Shown here: positions 56,348 to 63,948 of the stretch, piece by piece
How the letters are laid out: each line of letters begins with the position of its first letter
Position numbering within the stretch: the stretch's first letter is position 1
Translations under genes and position numbers: made by a program
Sequence record: MT446416.1
Reading direction: 5' to 3' (one strand)
From: Escherichia virus TH47
DNA length: 64,000 nucleotides
The notes under the pieces: model-generated
Seen by the model: the letters and a program-made list of their open reading frames with translations, nothing else
What the model was told of the DNA's origin: nothing
Databases searched by the model: none

Positions 56348-56375
56348 ATTATACATGAATCTAAGTACTATGCAA
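56348..56375 (-). promoter_or_regulatory. sigma70-like promoter TTGCAT-16-TATAAT with AGTACT boxes and 5' UTR hairpin
   Basis: Minus strand AGTACT-TTGCAT-AGTACT...TATAAT; hairpin GAGGGGGAA/TTCTCCCTC at 56313-56338 lies between -10 and SD. Confidence 0.55.
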
Positions 56376-56382
56376 GTACTTT

Positions 56383-56715
56383 TTACATTTTAATACCTGG
56401 ATTCAGGTAGCGGTGAGATCCATACTCTGGGTAGGTTTCAGTCCAGTACTGTAAATCTATAGTACCTTTAGCGTTAATCTTGTCTACCAGCTTATTCATC
56501 TTAGCGTATACTACATTAGCATCGATGCGTTTAAAGCCAGTGGCTTTAGTGAAGTAGTAGTGATTTGCTTCACTATCATTAAGGATATACCGAGCACCGT
56601 TTGCCGTTTGTGCAATAATGATTGAGTATTCTACTTCCCGATCCAGTCCGTCAATGAATACAGATGAAACATTAGTACGGATGAAAGCGTTTACGATAGC
56701 GATTGAAGTACTCAT
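56383..56715 (-). CDS. hypothetical protein
   Basis: ORF with GGAG SD. Confidence 0.55.
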   Translation of the reverse strand: MSTSIAIVNAFIRTNVSSVFIDGLDREVEYSIIIAQTANGARYILNDSEANHYYFTKATGFKRIDANVVYAKMNKLVDKINAKGTIDLQYWTETYPEYGSHRYLNPGIKM

Positions 56716-56768
56716 TTTGAATCTCCTAACTTTGTGGGCCGTCGCACCATTGCCGCCCTACGAGATAC

Positions 56769-56797
56769 ATTATTGCAGTACTGCTATACTTTGTCAA
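56769..56797 (-). promoter_or_regulatory. promoter TTGACA-17-AATAAT
   Basis: Perfect -35, weaker -10; AGTACT in the spacer. Confidence 0.4.
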
Positions 56798-56960
56798 TAG
56801 TTTTTTATTAATAGTTTTAGTACTGGCAGTACATCCACCAGCAGATAGTTACTCACCGTTATTAACTATATATTTTAGATACACCTATGCACCCGGTGGG
56901 CTAGTTTTTGTCTATGCGTATATAATAGCAAAGGGACTTACCGGAGTCAATCCCTTTTTT
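56790..56960. repeat. intergenic repeat module, copy 1
   Basis: Shares ...atgcacccggtgggct...gcgtatataatagcaaagggacttaccggagtcaatccctttttt with copies near 58.0 and 60.7 kb. Confidence 0.55.
56922..56950 (-). promoter_or_regulatory. upstream tandem promoter P1, TTGACT-17-TATTAT, inside repeat module
   Basis: Minus strand TTGACT-ccggtaagtccctttgc-TATTAT, conserved in all three long repeat copies. Confidence 0.45.
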
Positions 56961-56967
56961 ATTCTTT

Positions 56968-57225
56968 TTATGAAATATCTTCGATGTAGTCGGCCCATTT
57001 CATTTTTTCAGTACTGTCAATGGCTACCGGATTATTTGGATCAAACCATTCACCATTACCGCAATACATACCCACGGCTACGGTTTTATAGCCATCCTGT
57101 GCCGTATTCCATGACATTGCACGATAGATATGGCCTTTAATTGGTGTTAGTACTGGTAACGTTTTATGGTCTTCTACGTAGGCCATAGCTTGAGGATTTA
57201 CCCGATATTGTGTGAACTGTTCCAT
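56968..57225 (-). CDS. hypothetical protein
   Basis: ORF with AAGGGGAAA SD. Confidence 0.55.
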   Translation of the reverse strand: MEQFTQYRVNPQAMAYVEDHKTLPVLTPIKGHIYRAMSWNTAQDGYKTVAVGMYCGNGEWFDPNNPVAIDSTEKMKWADYIEDIS

Positions 57226-57253
57226 TATGTTTCCCCTTGTAGTTAGTAAAGTT

Positions 57254-57282
57254 ATTACATCAGTACTATCAAGCTATGTCAA
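57254..57282 (-). promoter_or_regulatory. promoter AGTACT-a-TTGACA-N17-TGTAAT
   Basis: Perfect -35 flanked by AGTACT, second AGTACT in spacer. Confidence 0.45.
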
Positions 57283-57301
57283 TAGTACTGAAATAAAACT
57301 T

Positions 57302-57526
57302 TTAGATTAGATTATTGATACCTTCGATGGTAGACTCGCTTTCTTCTTTCTCCCATTGTCGGTAGTACTTCCATGTTTCATGATATGTGGCGATTAGTTC
57401 ATCTTTTTGATCCTGGTTACATGCCAGTACTGAATCACGGTGAGCGGTGTTATAGATAGAATCGAATGATTTCTTCTCTTCTGCCAGGTTAGCTACTTCC
57501 CGCATCAGTTCATCAAAGTTAGCCAT
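57302..57526 (-). CDS. hypothetical protein
   Basis: ORF with AAGGAG SD. Confidence 0.55.
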   Translation of the reverse strand: MANFDELMREVANLAEEKKSFDSIYNTAHRDSVLACNQDQKDELIATYHETWKYYRQWEKEESESTIEGINNLI

Positions 57527-57573
57527 TTTAATACTCCTTTTAGTGGGGGAGGATATCTCCCCCTATGCAAAAC

Positions 57574-57601
57574 ATTATACGCTTTATTCAGTACTATGCA
57601 A
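57574..57601 (-). promoter_or_regulatory. promoter TTGCAT-16-TATAAT with AGTACT boxes and 5' UTR hairpin
   Basis: Hairpin GGGGGAG/CTCCCCC at 57545-57563 between -10 and SD. Confidence 0.55.
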
Positions 57602-57857
57602 GTACTTTTTTCATATAAACATTAAATTCTACACCGCCGTAACCTTCCACGATGATATGTTTTGCGTTATCACGCTTGCACATAGTGAAACCGTTGTTGA
57701 TATGTTCTGCATTTTCCAGGGCTACATCACCGATAGCGGCACATACAGCACTAATAACAGTATTCCGCAAAGTACTGGTATCATTAGCGGTCATAGTAGT
57801 TTGCAGTACTACGTTGTCATATACGTGTGCATTGATAGTGATTTCAATAGCGTTCAT
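57594..57857 (-). CDS. hypothetical protein, 87 aa (start trimmed)
   Basis: Track ORF includes the UTR hairpin; ATG at 57855-57857 (MNAIEITINA) follows AGGAG. Confidence 0.55.
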   Translation of the reverse strand: MNAIEITINAHVYDNVVLQTTMTANDTSTLRNTVISAVCAAIGDVALENAEHINNGFTMCKRDNAKHIIVEGYGGVEFNVYMKKVLA

Positions 57858-57909
57858 GGTGTATCTCCTGGACTTGAGGGGAAACCATTTCCCCCTCTCG
57901 ATGTAAAAC

Positions 57910-57937
57910 ATTATACGCGAATTGCGATAGTATGCAA
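57910..57937 (-). promoter_or_regulatory. promoter P2 TTGCAT-16-TATAAT with 5' UTR hairpin
   Basis: Hairpin GAGGGGGAAA/TTTCCCCTC at 57876-57898. Confidence 0.55.
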
Positions 57938-62455: not shown

Positions 62456-62618
62456 TATTTTAACCTCATTATAAAAATACTATATTACTGTAATGCTACA
62501 ATAATACTACTAGTACTAATCTTATTCAAACCACATGATACTACATATCCACCAGCATTACCACGGATAGTAACGCCTTTGTACTGTCTATATAAATTCA
62601 ACTGCGTTTATTGCCTTT

Positions 62619-62688
62619 GATCAAGAATTGATCAGAATTATACGCCTTATGCTAAATTGATCCAGTACTTTTTGATCATTTATTGATC
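62619..62688. promoter_or_regulatory. cluster of five GATC sites interleaved with two TATAAT boxes
   Basis: GATC at 62619, 62630, 62659, 62674, 62685, all as TTGATC(A/C), in 70 bp of the long leader upstream of the TraR-like gene. Confidence 0.45.
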
Positions 62689-62783
62689 AATATTATACAG
62701 TTACATTTGTGCACCCTATGGGTTGGTGACGTTCTCGTCTTGATGTAAGTATTATGCCAGTACTGGATGATATTGTCAATAGA

Positions 62784-62981
62784 TTATTTTAACTTTTTTC
62801 TGTCATTGATTAATGCTTTCAGTACTATACTAATGATTTGCAATGATTCATCAATGACTATAAAATTATTATCTTTCATTAGATGATAGTTACCATTGAT
62901 ATTATATTCTAATGAGTACTGTTTACGTTTAATTTTTGATAATGTTTCTATTTGTTTTTGTACTGATTTCATGCTAATCAT
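62784..62981 (-). CDS. hypothetical protein
   Basis: ORF with AGGA SD. Confidence 0.5.
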   Translation of the reverse strand: MISMKSVQKQIETLSKIKRKQYSLEYNINGNYHLMKDNNFIVIDESLQIISIVLKALINDRKKLK

Positions 62982-63086
62982 TGTTAAACGTCCTGTAACG
63001 CATTCTAACGATATAAACGGTTTAGTACTGGCATTGTATAGGGTAAATGATTAAAGCCCACCAGCGTTAACTAGTGGGCTATAATC

Positions 63087-63230
63087 TTACATCTTGCGGA
63101 TAATCTTAACAGTATCTTTCACCGATTTACCGTCTTGCTGGCATTGCTCGATCATCGCGTATTGTTCTGCGGTCAGATCCTCGCCAGTTTTTGCCAGTAC
63201 TGCATCGATGAATGAATCCAGTGCGATCAT
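63087..63230 (-). CDS. hypothetical small protein, 47 aa (below track cutoff)
   Basis: ATG at 63228-63230 downstream of promoter 63275-63302; MIALDSFIDAVLAKTGEDLTAEQYAMIEQCQQDGKSVKDTVKIIRKM. Confidence 0.4.
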   Translation of the reverse strand: MIALDSFIDAVLAKTGEDLTAEQYAMIEQCQQDGKSVKDTVKIIRKM

Positions 63231-63274
63231 TTTATTTCTCTCTTAGGTTAAGTTAACTACTGTTTATAAAACTT

Positions 63275-63302
63275 ATTATACAGTACTATCAATCTATGTC
63301 AA
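63275..63302 (-). promoter_or_regulatory. promoter AGTACT-a-TTGACA-N9-AGTACT-g-TATAAT
   Basis: Cleanest example of the AGTACT-flanked promoter layout. Confidence 0.5.
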
Positions 63303-63320
63303 TAGTACTGGTAATATATT

Positions 63321-63572
63321 TTATACGGGCTGTACCGCCAGTGTATTATCTGTTATAACCTGGTACATAACTTTTACAGTACTGTATGCTTCTTTGATGC
63401 TTAGCCCTTGAACTACAGGGACTTCATCAGCACCACCAGGAAGGGTACGCGAGATAACCAGTTTATCATTTTCTGAATGTACACAGTAACGATAGGTCAT
63501 CTGGCGACGGGCTAACGCATCATTCAAGTACTGTAAGTGGCGTTCTACGTTCTCGCGAGTAATACGGGTCAT
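63321..63572 (-). CDS. hypothetical protein, 83 aa (start trimmed)
   Basis: ATG at 63570-63572 (MTRITRENVER) with AAGGAAA upstream; track start lies in the promoter. Confidence 0.5.
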   Translation of the reverse strand: MTRITRENVERHLQYLNDALARRQMTYRYCVHSENDKLVISRTLPGGADEVPVVQGLSIKEAYSTVKVMYQVITDNTLAVQPV

Positions 63573-63608
63573 GATTGTTTCCTTAATAGTGTGGACTTGA
63601 TAAAACTT

Positions 63609-63636
63609 ATTATACAGTACTATCAATCTTTGTCAA
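63609..63636 (-). promoter_or_regulatory. promoter AGTACT-a-TTGACA-N16-TATAAT
   Basis: Near-identical to 63275-63302. Confidence 0.5.
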
Positions 63637-63655
63637 TAGTACTGTGATAATATTT

Positions 63656-63868
63656 TTAGTTAATGATAGTCAGTGTAAAATTGTAATCCCCTGCCTGGTA
63701 TAGTACTTTGTCGCCGAACGTACCAACACGTTTCATATTGCAATAGATACCCATAACACTTTTTACATCTTTGATATTCCGAACGCCTGTGATATCCTTG
63801 TTGAAATTTTCATGATCAGAAAATAAAACTTGTTTTGCATTTTTCAGTACAGTGCAGATATTAGCCAT
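63656..63868 (-). CDS. hypothetical protein
   Basis: ORF downstream of promoter and hairpin. Confidence 0.55.
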   Translation of the reverse strand: MANICTVLKNAKQVLFSDHENFNKDITGVRNIKDVKSVMGIYCNMKRVGTFGDKVLYQAGDYNFTLTIIN

Positions 63869-63920
63869 TTTGTTTTCTCTTTGTTAGTGGGGAGAATCAT
63901 TTCTCCCCTTGATGTAACTT

Positions 63921-63948
63921 ATTATACAGTACTATAATCTATTGTCAA
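63921..63948 (-). promoter_or_regulatory. promoter TTGACA-16-TATAAT with 5' UTR hairpin
   Basis: Hairpin GGGGAGAA/TTCTCCCC at 63889-63908, identical to the 61433-61452 hairpin. Confidence 0.55.

What the first reader, a model, noticed from the sequence alone, without database searches (positions are those of the whole stretch)
56348..63948. AGTACT hexamers flank promoter -35 and -10 elements
Many promoters read AGTACT-(a)-TTGACA/TTGCAT-...-AGTACT-g-TATAAT, so the palindromic hexamer sits at about -43 and -18. AGTACT also appears frequent throughout the window (several per kb in places, against roughly one per 3 kb expected from base composition), although part of that comes from family-A codons (S-T encoded as AGT ACT). 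A self-complementary hexamer at fixed promoter positions suggests a phage- or host-encoded dimeric factor, or a modification or restriction-related site.
Basis: partly seen in the sequence, partly recalled or inferred. Interest (0 to 1): 0.55.

Follow-up and report, generated by a model that had tools for sequence, protein, structure and literature searches.

The report
Hyper-abundant AGTACT word in jumbo phage
AGTACT is the commonest six-letter word in the whole genome of this giant E. coli phage and its relatives, is kept by selection in genes and at fixed places in early promoters, and so probably marks phage DNA for a reader protein that has not been identified.

Summary
The window comes from a PBECO4/121Q-like (Asteriusvirus) jumbo coliphage.

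- **Abundance:** AGTACT occurs 220 times in 64 kb against about 18 expected. It is the commonest hexamer here and also in EC22.5-2 (913 in 350 kb), RaK2, GAP32, CBB and Serratia BF. It is not enriched in PA5oct, T4, T5 or E. coli.
- **Not a codon effect:** all three reading frames are enriched (168 coding sites against 50 after synonymous shuffling). 192 of 219 sites have unrelated flanks.
- **Selection:** sites are conserved (80% against 51% for all hexamers). Third codon positions inside the word are 0.895 identical against 0.764 outside.
- **Shape and spacing:** the flanks are dyad-symmetric (CAGTACTG), and spacing is more even than random.
- **Promoters:** in consensus sigma-70 promoters the word sits at discrete offsets (about -19..-14 and -39..-34). 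This holds for 15 of 16 promoters in the flagged interval and again in RaK2.
- **Unexplained:** one 8.4-kb block (39780-48217) carries 48 copies of AGTACA on the coding strand and no AGTACT.

The best reading is a selected recognition word for an unidentified clade-specific DNA reader, one that also sits inside early promoters. A host SlmA site, a codon artefact and a generic promoter element are rejected. A methylation site is not excluded. I found no prior report.

The parts
1..64000 (.). Genome-wide word AGTACT (extended cAGTACTg): 220 copies, 168 in coding sequence (frames 70/37/61) and 52 noncoding.
   Evidence: It is the rank-1 hexamer. Synonymous shuffling gives 50.4 +/- 6.2. 192 of 219 sites have unrelated flanks.
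63921..63948 (-). Early promoter: TTGACA (63943-63948), 16-nt spacer, TATAAT (63921-63926). AGTACT at 63928-63933, abutting the -10.
63609..63643 (-). Early promoter with two words. AGTACT 63638-63643 lies just upstream of the -35 (63631-63636). AGTACT 63616-63621 abuts the -10 (63609-63614).
63275..63309 (-). Early promoter with two words: AGTACT 63304-63309 and 63282-63287. -35 at 63297-63302, -10 at 63275-63280.
62751..62779 (-). Promoter TTGACA-17-CATAAT with AGTACT at 62759-62764, two bases upstream of the -10.
62164..62191 (-). Promoter with AGTACT 62181-62186 overlapping the last base of the -35 (TTGAC-AGTACT).
61738..61765 (-). Promoter TTGACA-16-TATACT with AGTACT 61755-61760 overlapping the -35.
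61465..61497 (-). Promoter TGGACA-16-TATAAT with AGTACT at offset -27 (61492-61497) and offset -7 (61472-61477).
61168..61200 (-). Promoter AGTAC-TTGCAC-AGTACT-N10-TATAAT. Words at 61195-61200 and 61184-61189.
60632..60664 (-). Promoter AGTAC-TTGCAT-16-TATAAT. Word at 60659-60664.
60516..60543 (-). Perfect consensus promoter with no AGTACT. It is the one exception among the 16.
60176..60203 (-). Promoter with AGTACT 60183-60188 abutting the -10.
59745..59781 (-). Promoter AGTACT-at-TTGACA-N10-AGTACT-t-TATAAT. Words at 59776-59781 and 59752-59757.
57910..57942 (-). Promoter AGTAC-TTGCAT-16-TATAAT. Word at 57937-57942.
57574..57606 (-). Promoter AGTAC-TTGCAT-AGTACT-N10-TATAAT. Words at 57601-57606 and 57590-57595.
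57254..57289 (-). Promoter AGTACT-a-TTGACA-N9-AGTACT-ga-TGTAAT. Words at 57284-57289 and 57262-57267.
   Evidence: Read directly from the sequence.
56769..56797 (-). Promoter TTGACA-17-AATAAT with AGTACT at 56777-56782.
56348..56380 (-). Promoter AGTAC-TTGCAT-AGTACT-N10-TATAAT. Words at 56375-56380 and 56364-56369.
39780..48217 (-). 'AGTACA island'. It has no AGTACT but 48 copies of AGTACA on the coding strand (TGTACT on the + strand), in all frames, with the same C/G flanks. Only 1 copy is in the opposite orientation.
   Evidence: It is conserved in EC22.5-2 and in a 348,532-bp IMG/VR contig, and is the only such block in 350 kb.

Best explanation
AGTACT, more fully cAGTACTg, is a selected recognition word of the RaK2-like enterobacterial jumbo phages (Asteriusvirus, Alcyoneusvirus, Mimasvirus, Eneladusvirus). 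It is read on duplex phage DNA by a clade-specific protein that has not been identified, most simply a phage-encoded homodimer.

**Shown:**
- The word is the commonest hexamer of these genomes, about one per 380 bp and roughly 11 times the density in an E. coli sample.
- It is enriched in every reading frame and in noncoding DNA.
- It is maintained by purifying selection, even at synonymous positions.
- Its flanks are dyad-symmetric.
- It is spaced more evenly than chance.
- In Asteriusvirus and RaK2 early sigma-70 promoters it occupies discrete positions (-19..-14 and -39..-34, 20 bp apart) inside the RNA polymerase footprint.

**Inferred:**
This distinguishes it from host DNA or organises it.
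- The copies inside early promoters let the same protein modulate early transcription. Shut-off by occlusion of the spacer and the -35 edge is the most likely effect.
- The 8.4-kb block that uses the one-base, single-orientation variant CAGTACAG suggests that binding can be polar, and that both-way reading is disfavoured there.
For: **Enrichment.**
- 220 sites against 17.5 +/- 4.1 in shuffles; rank-1 hexamer of the window.
- 913 sites against 119-185 expected in 350 kb of EC22.5-2.
- Rank 1 also in RaK2, GAP32 and CBB, and Serratia BF.
- Absent from PA5oct, T4, T5 and an E. coli sample.

**DNA-level selection.**
- Frames are 70/37/61. Synonymous shuffling gives 50.4 +/- 6.2 and codon-order shuffling 21.8, against 168 observed.
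- The dipeptides ST, VL and QY are inflated 1.65- to 2.04-fold.
- Sites are retained at 79.5% against 51.4% for all hexamers. Third-position identity is 0.895 inside the word and 0.764 outside.
- No single-mismatch neighbour of the word is depleted, which argues against a conversion drive.

**Dyad symmetry.** C at -1 and G at +6 are independent of each other. CAGTACTG occurs 202 times and GAGTACTC 4 times.

**Even spacing.** The coefficient of variation is 0.79-0.85, with P <= 0.001 in three of four regions.

**Promoter positions.**, and for RaK2, where the rest of the spacer sequence is not conserved.

**Not duplication.** 192 of 219 sites have independent contexts.
Against: - No reader protein was identified. 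Pfam on 20 window proteins gave only a Dam-type methyltransferase, a DksA-like zinc finger, a GNAT domain and a weak kinase match.
- A plain homodimer does not predict the strictly one-orientation AGTACA island (48:1).
- In EC22.5-2 only 3 of 63 promoters carry both promoter positions. The published CBB promoters mostly lack the word. The promoter role may therefore be lineage-specific or incidental.
- Nothing here distinguishes binding from covalent modification.
- The direction of the regulatory effect, repression or activation, is pure inference.
Confidence: 0.45

Rival explanations
1. AGTACT is the target of a phage-encoded orphan DNA methyltransferase. The methyl mark, rather than a bound protein, is the functional signal. 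It could mark self DNA, distinguish old from newly replicated DNA, or switch early promoters epigenetically.
For: - A short palindrome with dyad flanks is typical of methyltransferase sites.
- The window encodes a PF05869 Dam-family N6-adenine methyltransferase at 16196-16720.
- Relatives encode several methyltransferases (PMC11895373).
- RaK2 DNA is reported to be cut only by methylation-insensitive enzymes (PMC3622015).
- This phage purges most other GC-rich palindromic hexamers, so tolerating about 900 ScaI/Eco255I-type sites suggests that the site is protected.
Against: - Methylation alone gives no reason for a 7-fold enrichment, for selection in all frames or for even spacing. Some reader of the mark would still be needed.
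- Lost sites show no deamination signature, and AGTATT is not depleted.
- The specificity of the methyltransferases is unknown.
- The AGTACA island would go unmarked, yet it is also conserved.
Confidence: 0.2
2. The functional unit is an oriented 8-mer, CAGTAC(T/A)G, read by a translocating machine. That would resemble Chi or KOPS, or a factor that rides with RNA polymerase or the replisome. The palindrome is favoured because one copy serves both directions. In the island only one direction is allowed.
For: - In the island the base after coding-strand AGTAC is A 48, G 3, C 3, T 0, and the reverse orientation occurs once. This is exactly what is needed to keep one orientation while abolishing the other.
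- Island sites keep C at -1 and G at +6 and are conserved: 73% against 54%.
- A paralogue pair has AGTACA inside the island and AGTACT outside at the same codons.
- Even spacing suits a machine that needs frequent sites.
- Host Chi sites are also clustered and co-oriented in the early region.
Against: - Outside the island the single-orientation variants are only about 1.7-fold enriched, against 7.5-fold for the palindrome, and they show no strand bias.
- The fixed positions inside promoters are not explained.
- No known translocase word is this dense.
- No candidate machine was identified.
Confidence: 0.15
3. AGTACT is an intrinsic element of strong sigma-70 promoters, an upstream or extended -10-like contact for host RNA polymerase. 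The intragenic copies would then be by-products.
For: - The offsets from the -10 and -35 are discrete.
- A homologous promoter AGTACTtgaca-N10-AGTACTgtataat exists in seven otherwise unrelated viral contigs.
Against: - 76% of sites are intragenic and are themselves conserved.
- The strong T5 promoters PN25, PN26, P28 and P31 contain no AGTACT, and T5 and T4 are depleted in the word.
- The TG of ACTG-TATAAT is one base out of register with the canonical extended -10. This rests on established knowledge of TGnTATAAT, and the tool reports 'TG_before_second: no' for these promoters.
- CBB promoters lack the word.
Confidence: 0.05
4. The sites titrate or activate the host nucleoid-occlusion factor SlmA. 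Its binding site, GTGAGTACTCAC, has the same core. Binding would block cell division.
For: - The core AGTACT equals SBS positions 4-9 (PMC3020112).
- A relative, Sharanji, causes filamentation (PMC11895373).
- Enrichment is seen in enterobacterial phages but not in the Pseudomonas relative.
Against: - SlmA needs G1 and T2 and a purine at position 3. In the phage, G at the position-3 equivalent is disfavoured (7.9%) and C is preferred (45.5%), and GT is not enriched at positions 1-2.
- There are 0 full SBS matches and 1 GTNAGTACTNAC in 350 kb.
- T4 and T5 infect the same host without the enrichment.
- Filamentation is common in phage infection.
Confidence: 0.03
5. The excess is an artefact of codon usage, paralogous gene families, promoter duplication, base composition, or a mutational or repair drive.
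For: - 70 of 141 Ser-Thr dipeptides are encoded AGT-ACT.
- Some promoter cassettes are repeats, in clusters of 7, 6 and 4 sites.
Against: - All frames and noncoding DNA are enriched.
- Synonymous and codon-order shuffles give 50 and 22 against 168 observed.
- 192 of 219 contexts are independent.
- The maximal-order Markov expectation of 189 only reflects the embedded 5-mers.
- The neighbours of the word are not depleted.
- Control genomes of similar composition, T4 and PA5oct, are depleted in the word.
Confidence: 0.04

Closest known systems
DNA uptake sequences (USS/DUS) of Haemophilus and Neisseria
   Same: - A short word at about one per kb or denser.
- Present in all reading frames, and it distorts peptide composition.
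- Conserved across related genomes.
- Sometimes found as inverted pairs in terminator stems. One CBB terminator has the stem AGTACTGG...CCAGTACT.
   Different: - USS and DUS are asymmetric, 9-12 bp long, and read by a competence receptor during uptake.
- Here the word is a 6-8 bp palindrome in a virulent phage with no uptake step.
- It also sits at fixed promoter positions.
Chi (GCTGGTGG) and KOPS: oriented genome-wide words read by RecBCD and FtsK
   Same: - An 8-mer-scale word, over-represented and selected inside genes.
- The AGTACA island shows strict single orientation, as Chi and KOPS do.
- Genuine Chi sites are co-clustered in the same early region.
   Different: - The main word is palindromic and therefore carries no polarity.
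- Its density is more than 10 times higher.
- No translocase is linked to it.
SlmA-binding sites (GTGAGTACTCAC) and Noc-binding sites: nucleoid-marking palindromes
   Same: - The same AGTACT core.
- The same idea of a dimeric TetR-like or ParB-like protein marking a chromosome at many dispersed palindromic sites.
   Different: - The flanks required by SlmA are absent or disfavoured.
- There are about 900 sites in 350 kb, against a few dozen on the E. coli chromosome.
- No SlmA homologue was found in the phage. The best tblastn E-value was 2.5 against the EC22.5-2 genome (first 350 kb) plus partial loci of RaK2, GAP32, CBB and BF.
Operators of dimeric phage or plasmid repressors that overlap the -35 and -10
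   Same: - Dyad-symmetric sites inside the RNA polymerase footprint.
- Two sites 20 bp apart in some promoters.
   Different: - Operators are few and confined to regulatory DNA.
- Here three quarters of the sites are intragenic and are also under selection.
Restriction-site avoidance in phage genomes
   Same: The same genome shows it in extreme form. GCGC has 0 copies in 350 kb and 23 palindromic hexamers are absent. Selection on palindromic words is clearly strong here.
   Different: AGTACT goes the opposite way, with a 7.5-fold excess, although it is a type II target (ScaI; Eco255I from my own knowledge).

Membership tests
Sigma-70 promoter element (UP, extended -10 or extended -35) | Fixed position relative to the -10 and -35 hexamers | tested here: met
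   Offsets -7 and -27 dominate in the window, in EC22.5-2 and in RaK2.
Sigma-70 promoter element (UP, extended -10 or extended -35) | Occurs in strong sigma-70 promoters generally, and is essentially confined to promoters | tested here: not met
   Six annotated T5 promoters lack it. CBB promoters mostly lack it. 168 of 220 sites are intragenic.
SlmA-binding site (SBS) | 12-bp palindrome with G1, T2, A4 and G5 required and a purine at position 3 (PMC3020112) | tested here: not met
   Only A4, G5 and T6 (the core) match. C is preferred and G disfavoured at position 3, and there is no GT at positions 1-2. There are 0 full matches in 350 kb.
Restriction-modification target shaped by avoidance | Under-representation in the phage genome | tested here: not met
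   7.5-fold over-representation, while 23 other palindromic hexamers are absent.
Methyltransferase site with an epigenetic role (Dam/GATC-like) | A cognate methyltransferase of matching specificity, and a methylated site in virion DNA | not testable with these tools
   A PF05869 Dam-family methyltransferase is encoded, but its specificity cannot be read from the sequence. No methylome data were found.
Genome-wide selected words (USS/DUS, Chi, KOPS) | Strong over-representation, presence in all frames, and conservation of individual sites across related genomes | tested here: met
Genome-wide selected words (USS/DUS, Chi, KOPS) | A known reader machine, and for Chi and KOPS an orientation bias | tested here: inconclusive
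   The palindrome has no orientation. The island variant is 48:1 in one orientation. No reader is known.
Operator of a dimeric repressor | Dyad symmetry and overlap with core promoter elements | tested here: met
   CAGTACTG dyad. Positions -19..-14 and -39..-34.
Operator of a dimeric repressor | A cognate repressor, and few sites restricted to regulatory DNA | tested here: not met
   There are about 900 sites, mostly intragenic. No repressor was identified.

The most novel reading that the evidence does not exclude
RaK2-like jumbo phages carry a previously undescribed 'self-word' system.
- A dedicated phage protein reads CAGTAC(T/A)G about every 380 bp along the 350-kb chromosome.
- It uses that word both to organise or mark phage DNA against the host background and to time early transcription.
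- Binding is polar, which is revealed by an 8-kb island where only one orientation is tolerated.

This would be a viral analogue of the chromosome-marking systems Noc, SlmA and KOPS, with no known counterpart in phages.
Probability: 0.3. Interest if true: 0.9.

Novelty: new variant of a known kind. Interest (0 to 1): 0.74.

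Why it matters
If it is real as a system, it would be the first case of a phage genome saturated with a selected palindromic word. The genome otherwise eliminates most GC-rich six-base palindromes.

- **A handle on unknown biology.** An 8-bp bait could be used to fish out a major unknown DNA-binding or DNA-modifying activity. More than 80% of the genes of these jumbo phages have no known function.
- **Early gene control.** It could explain how these phages control about 25 kb of consensus sigma-70 early promoters.
- **A practical signature.** AGTACT density separates resident from recently acquired DNA. 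It also identifies members of this clade in metagenomes.
- **A constraint on engineering.** Recoding or engineering therapeutic phages of this group should take the word into account.
- **A puzzle with a ready test.** The single-orientation AGTACA island is unexplained. It offers a built-in natural experiment.

Tried and rejected
- **Codon or paralogue artefact: rejected.** Frame analysis, synonymous and codon-order shuffles and context clustering all argue against it.
- **Maximal-order Markov expectation: uninformative.** It gives 189 only because the embedded 5-mers are themselves enriched.
- **Host SlmA site: rejected** on flank statistics, and no SlmA homologue was found in the phage sequences held here.
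- **LexA or TrpR half-site resemblance:** recalled from memory only. The spacing does not fit, so I did not pursue it.
- **VSP-like repair or conversion drive: no support.** No neighbour of the word is depleted, and lost sites show no C-to-T signature.
- **General feature of strong coliphage promoters or of enterophages: rejected** with T5, T4 and PA5oct as controls.
- **Helical phasing of sites:** there is no clear periodicity beyond the 20-23 bp promoter spacing.
- **Literature:** searches for AGTACT with jumbo phage, bacteriophage, RaK2 with ScaI, Asteriusvirus with methylation, and CAGTACTG with operator found no report of this word in phages. The hits in the giant-virus methylome and EppR papers were irrelevant.
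- **Pfam on 10 island proteins:** no hits.
- **Island homologues in IMG/VR:** only one further Asteriusvirus contig was found.
- **Intergenic motifs of the island:** nothing distinctive.
- **Not attempted:** I did not try to identify the reader protein across the full 560-gene proteome.

Full report
**Identity of the window.** Megablast of 56000-64000 against phage records gives 90-93% identity to jumbo coliphages of the PBECO4/121Q group: CMSTMSU, SHEFM2K, UE-S1, phAPEC6 and PBECO4. Practically all genes lie on the minus strand. The flagged interval belongs to a block of short ORFs, each behind a near-consensus sigma-70 promoter. For the relative CBB this arrangement has been described as the early, host-takeover region (PMC5259590).

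- AGTACT occurs 220 times in 64 kb. Dinucleotide-preserving shuffles give 17.5 +/- 4.1, with a maximum of 28.
- It is the most frequent of all 4096 hexamers in the window. The order-0 expectation is 21.4 and the order-2 expectation 38.7.
- In 55.5-64 kb the tool scan finds seven perfect 12/12 consensus promoters on the minus strand.
- Of 16 near-consensus promoters that I listed, 15 contain the word. The offsets from the first T of the -10 hexamer are -7/-8 in 8 promoters, -27 in 6, -29/-31 in 3 and -16/-17 in 5.

**It is not a codon, paralogue or duplication effect.**
- Of the 220 sites, 168 are in coding sequence (3.06 per kb) and 52 are noncoding (5.67 per kb).
- The coding sites fall in all three frames, 70/37/61.
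- Shuffling synonymous codons within each gene leaves 50.4 +/- 6.2 sites. Shuffling codon order leaves 21.8 +/- 4.4. The observed number is 168.
- Both codon choice and protein sequence are therefore bent towards the word. The dipeptides Ser-Thr (2.04x), Val-Leu (1.75x) and Gln-Tyr (1.65x) are inflated, while the reversed dipeptides are not.
- Clustering the 40-nt flanks shows 192 independent contexts among 219 sites.

**The word is genome-wide and clade-wide.**
- I assembled 350 kb of the unannotated relative EC22.5-2. AGTACT is again the top hexamer, with 913 copies against 119-185 expected.
- Its density is about 7 per kb in the early block, 2.8 per kb over the next 100 kb and 1.6 per kb in the remainder.
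- It is also the rank-1 hexamer in samples of four other phages: Klebsiella phage RaK2 (250 in 50 kb), Cronobacter GAP32 (53 in 25 kb) and Pectobacterium CBB (57 in 25 kb), and Serratia BF (44 in 20 kb).
- It is at or below expectation in the more distant Pseudomonas relative PA5oct (1 in 25 kb), T4 (3 in 25 kb), T5 (2 in 25 kb) and E. coli K-12 (12 in 50 kb).

**The sites are under selection.**
- In alignments of the window to EC22.5-2 (86% identity), 79.5% of AGTACT sites are intact against 51.4% of all hexamers. Against SHEFM2K the figures are 77.9% and 50.3%.
- Third codon positions inside the word are 0.895 identical against 0.764 outside.
- Coding sites are retained at 76.9% against a 49.5% control, and noncoding sites at 87.8% against 61.9%.
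- None of the nine single-mismatch neighbour pairs is depleted, with ratios of 1.1-1.7. Lost sites show no C-to-T signature. I therefore see no sign of a repair or conversion drive.

**Anatomy of the word.**
- The flanks are dyad-symmetric. In the symmetrised EC22.5-2 data C precedes the word in 45.5% of sites and G in only 7.9%, against a background of 17%. There is a weaker T-rich then A-rich pattern further out.
- CAGTACTG occurs 202 times and GAGTACTC 4 times. The two flanks behave independently.
- Inter-site distances are more even than a Poisson process. The coefficient of variation is 0.79-0.85, against 0.99 +/- 0.06-0.08 in simulations, with P <= 0.001 in three of four regions.
- GTAC is the only palindromic tetramer that is enriched (2.2x).
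- In the same genome GCGC has no copy at all, and 23 palindromic hexamers are absent, including the PstI, XhoI, SacI, SphI, NheI, BamHI, KpnI, SalI and NcoI sites. The excess of AGTACT is thus the opposite of the restriction avoidance that dominates this genome.

**Promoter placement.**
- Among 63 strict promoters of EC22.5-2 (TTG[AC][CA][AT]-N16-18-TATAAT), the word starts at -7 in 15 and at -27 in 16. About 0.3 per position is expected.
- In RaK2 the counts are 9 and 5 of 21, and 7 promoters carry both.
- RaK2 promoters read AGTAC-TTGACA-N9-cAGTACTg-TATAAT with otherwise unrelated spacers. The positions are therefore maintained independently of the surrounding sequence.
- Three observations argue against a general RNA polymerase contact. 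The annotated strong T5 promoters contain no AGTACT. The 18 published CBB promoters mostly lack it. The TG in ACTG-TATAAT is one base out of register with the canonical extended -10, and the tool reports 'no' for these promoters.
- A homologous promoter with both words occurs once in each of seven unrelated IMG/VR contigs of GC about 0.41. I could not interpret this.

**An unexpected island.**
- The window has three stretches without AGTACT.
- Two of them, 9764-12263 and 50637-55593, simply lack any GTAC enrichment. The second is an array of about 70-residue paralogues.
- The third, 39780-48217, has a normal GTAC density of 10 per kb, but every copy is the variant. There are 48 TGTACT on the + strand, which is AGTACA on the coding strand, 0 AGTACT and 1 copy in the opposite orientation.
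- The variant occurs in all frames (16/14/11) and in noncoding DNA (7).
- It keeps C at -1 and G at +6, and it is conserved at 73% against 54% for all hexamers in the block.
- After coding-strand AGTAC the next base is A 48, G 3, C 3 and T 0.
- The same block, with sharp edges, exists in EC22.5-2, where it is the only such block in 350 kb. It also exists in a 348,532-bp IMG/VR contig whose protein is 68% identical.
- The one island gene with paralogues outside the island has AGTACA where they have AGTACT, at the same aligned codons.
- The edges fall inside or next to ordinary coding sequence. The island proteins have no Pfam match.
- The pattern is what would result if a word CAGTAC(T/A)G had to be kept in one orientation while the reverse orientation was forbidden. 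I cannot say why.

**How it most likely works.**
- The combination of dyad symmetry, selection in all frames, even spacing, restriction to one clade and discrete positions inside the polymerase footprint is best explained by a sequence-specific reader of duplex phage DNA.
Nothing here identifies the protein.
- Covalent modification is the main rival. The window encodes a PF05869 Dam-family methyltransferase, and RaK2 DNA is reported as heavily methylated (PMC3622015).
- An oriented-word model, Chi- or KOPS-like, explains the island best. It explains the promoter positions and the 7.5-fold against 1.7-fold preference for the palindrome less well.

**Comparison with SlmA.**
- The E. coli SlmA site GTGAGTACTCAC shares the AGTACT core (PMC3020112), and a relative causes filamentation (PMC11895373).
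- But the determinants SlmA needs, G1, T2 and a purine at position 3, are absent or disfavoured. No full site exists in 350 kb.
- No significant SlmA homologue was found. The best tblastn E-value was 2.5, searched against the first 350 kb of EC22.5-2, the window and partial loci of RaK2, GAP32, CBB and BF.

**Novelty.** Full-text searches found no description of this word in RaK2-like phages or any other phage. The genome papers I read describe the promoters without mentioning it. I class it as a new variant of a known kind, namely genome-wide selected DNA words. There is a real chance that it is a new kind of phage chromosome-marking system.

Noticed in passing
Window minus strand at + coordinates 56835, 58888, 60690, 61590, 62549, 63058 (and 7860); EC22.5-2 30-50 kb; L010 21.8-43.6 kb: Host Chi sites (GCTGGTGG) are clustered and all co-oriented on the coding strand of the early region. 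There are 6 in 6.3 kb of the window, against 0.2 expected for the whole window. EC22.5-2 and RaK2 each have 9. Most lie in intergenic DNA.
   Followed up: partly
Whole window; EC22.5-2 (L003-L009): Extreme purge of palindromes. GCGC has 0 copies in 350 kb (159-292 expected). 23 six-base palindromes are absent genome-wide, and 26 are absent from the window. GATC is at 0.55x. GTGCAC, by contrast, is 2.3x enriched.
   Followed up: partly
Window 9764-12263 and 50637-55593: Two stretches have neither AGTACT nor GTAC enrichment. The second is a tandem array of about 70-residue paralogues (PHROG 4148 in the SHEFM2K annotation). These may be DNA that arrived recently or turns over quickly and has not acquired the word.
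   Followed up: partly
Window minus strand about 56922-56965, 58026-58065, 60750-60790; L010 about 10243 and 11900: Repeated terminator-promoter cassettes. A G/C hairpin followed by a T-run contains a TTGACT/TTGACA -35 hexamer in its stem and is followed by a -10 (GCTATTAT or GCTATAAT).
   Followed up: no
Window, e.g. 56300-56345, 57535-57570, 57870-57905, 60130-60165, 61125-61160, 61425-61455, 63885-63915: Early transcripts would begin with a conserved 5' hairpin (GGGGA...TCCCC type) immediately upstream of the Shine-Dalgarno sequence. It may be an mRNA-stabilising or translational control element.
   Followed up: no
L015-L021 (IMG/VR contigs, GC about 0.41): Seven contigs of an unrelated phage group each carry one homologous promoter, aaatAGTACTtgacagcgtcgctggAGTACTgtataatcggcgcc. 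Their overall AGTACT excess is only 2-3 fold.
   Followed up: partly
Window 16196-16720 (-), 62198-62455 (-), 61778-62134 (-), 58074-58658 (-): Recognisable proteins among the ORFans: a PF05869 Dam-family adenine methyltransferase, a DksA/TraR-type zinc finger, a GNAT acetyltransferase, and a weak, below-threshold protein-kinase-like match. The last three are in the early block.
   Followed up: partly
CBB supplementary table (PMC5259590), terminator Torf26: A CBB terminator stem is built from an inverted pair of the word, AGTACTGG...CCAGTACT. This recalls the uptake-sequence pairs found in Neisseria and Haemophilus terminators.
   Followed up: no
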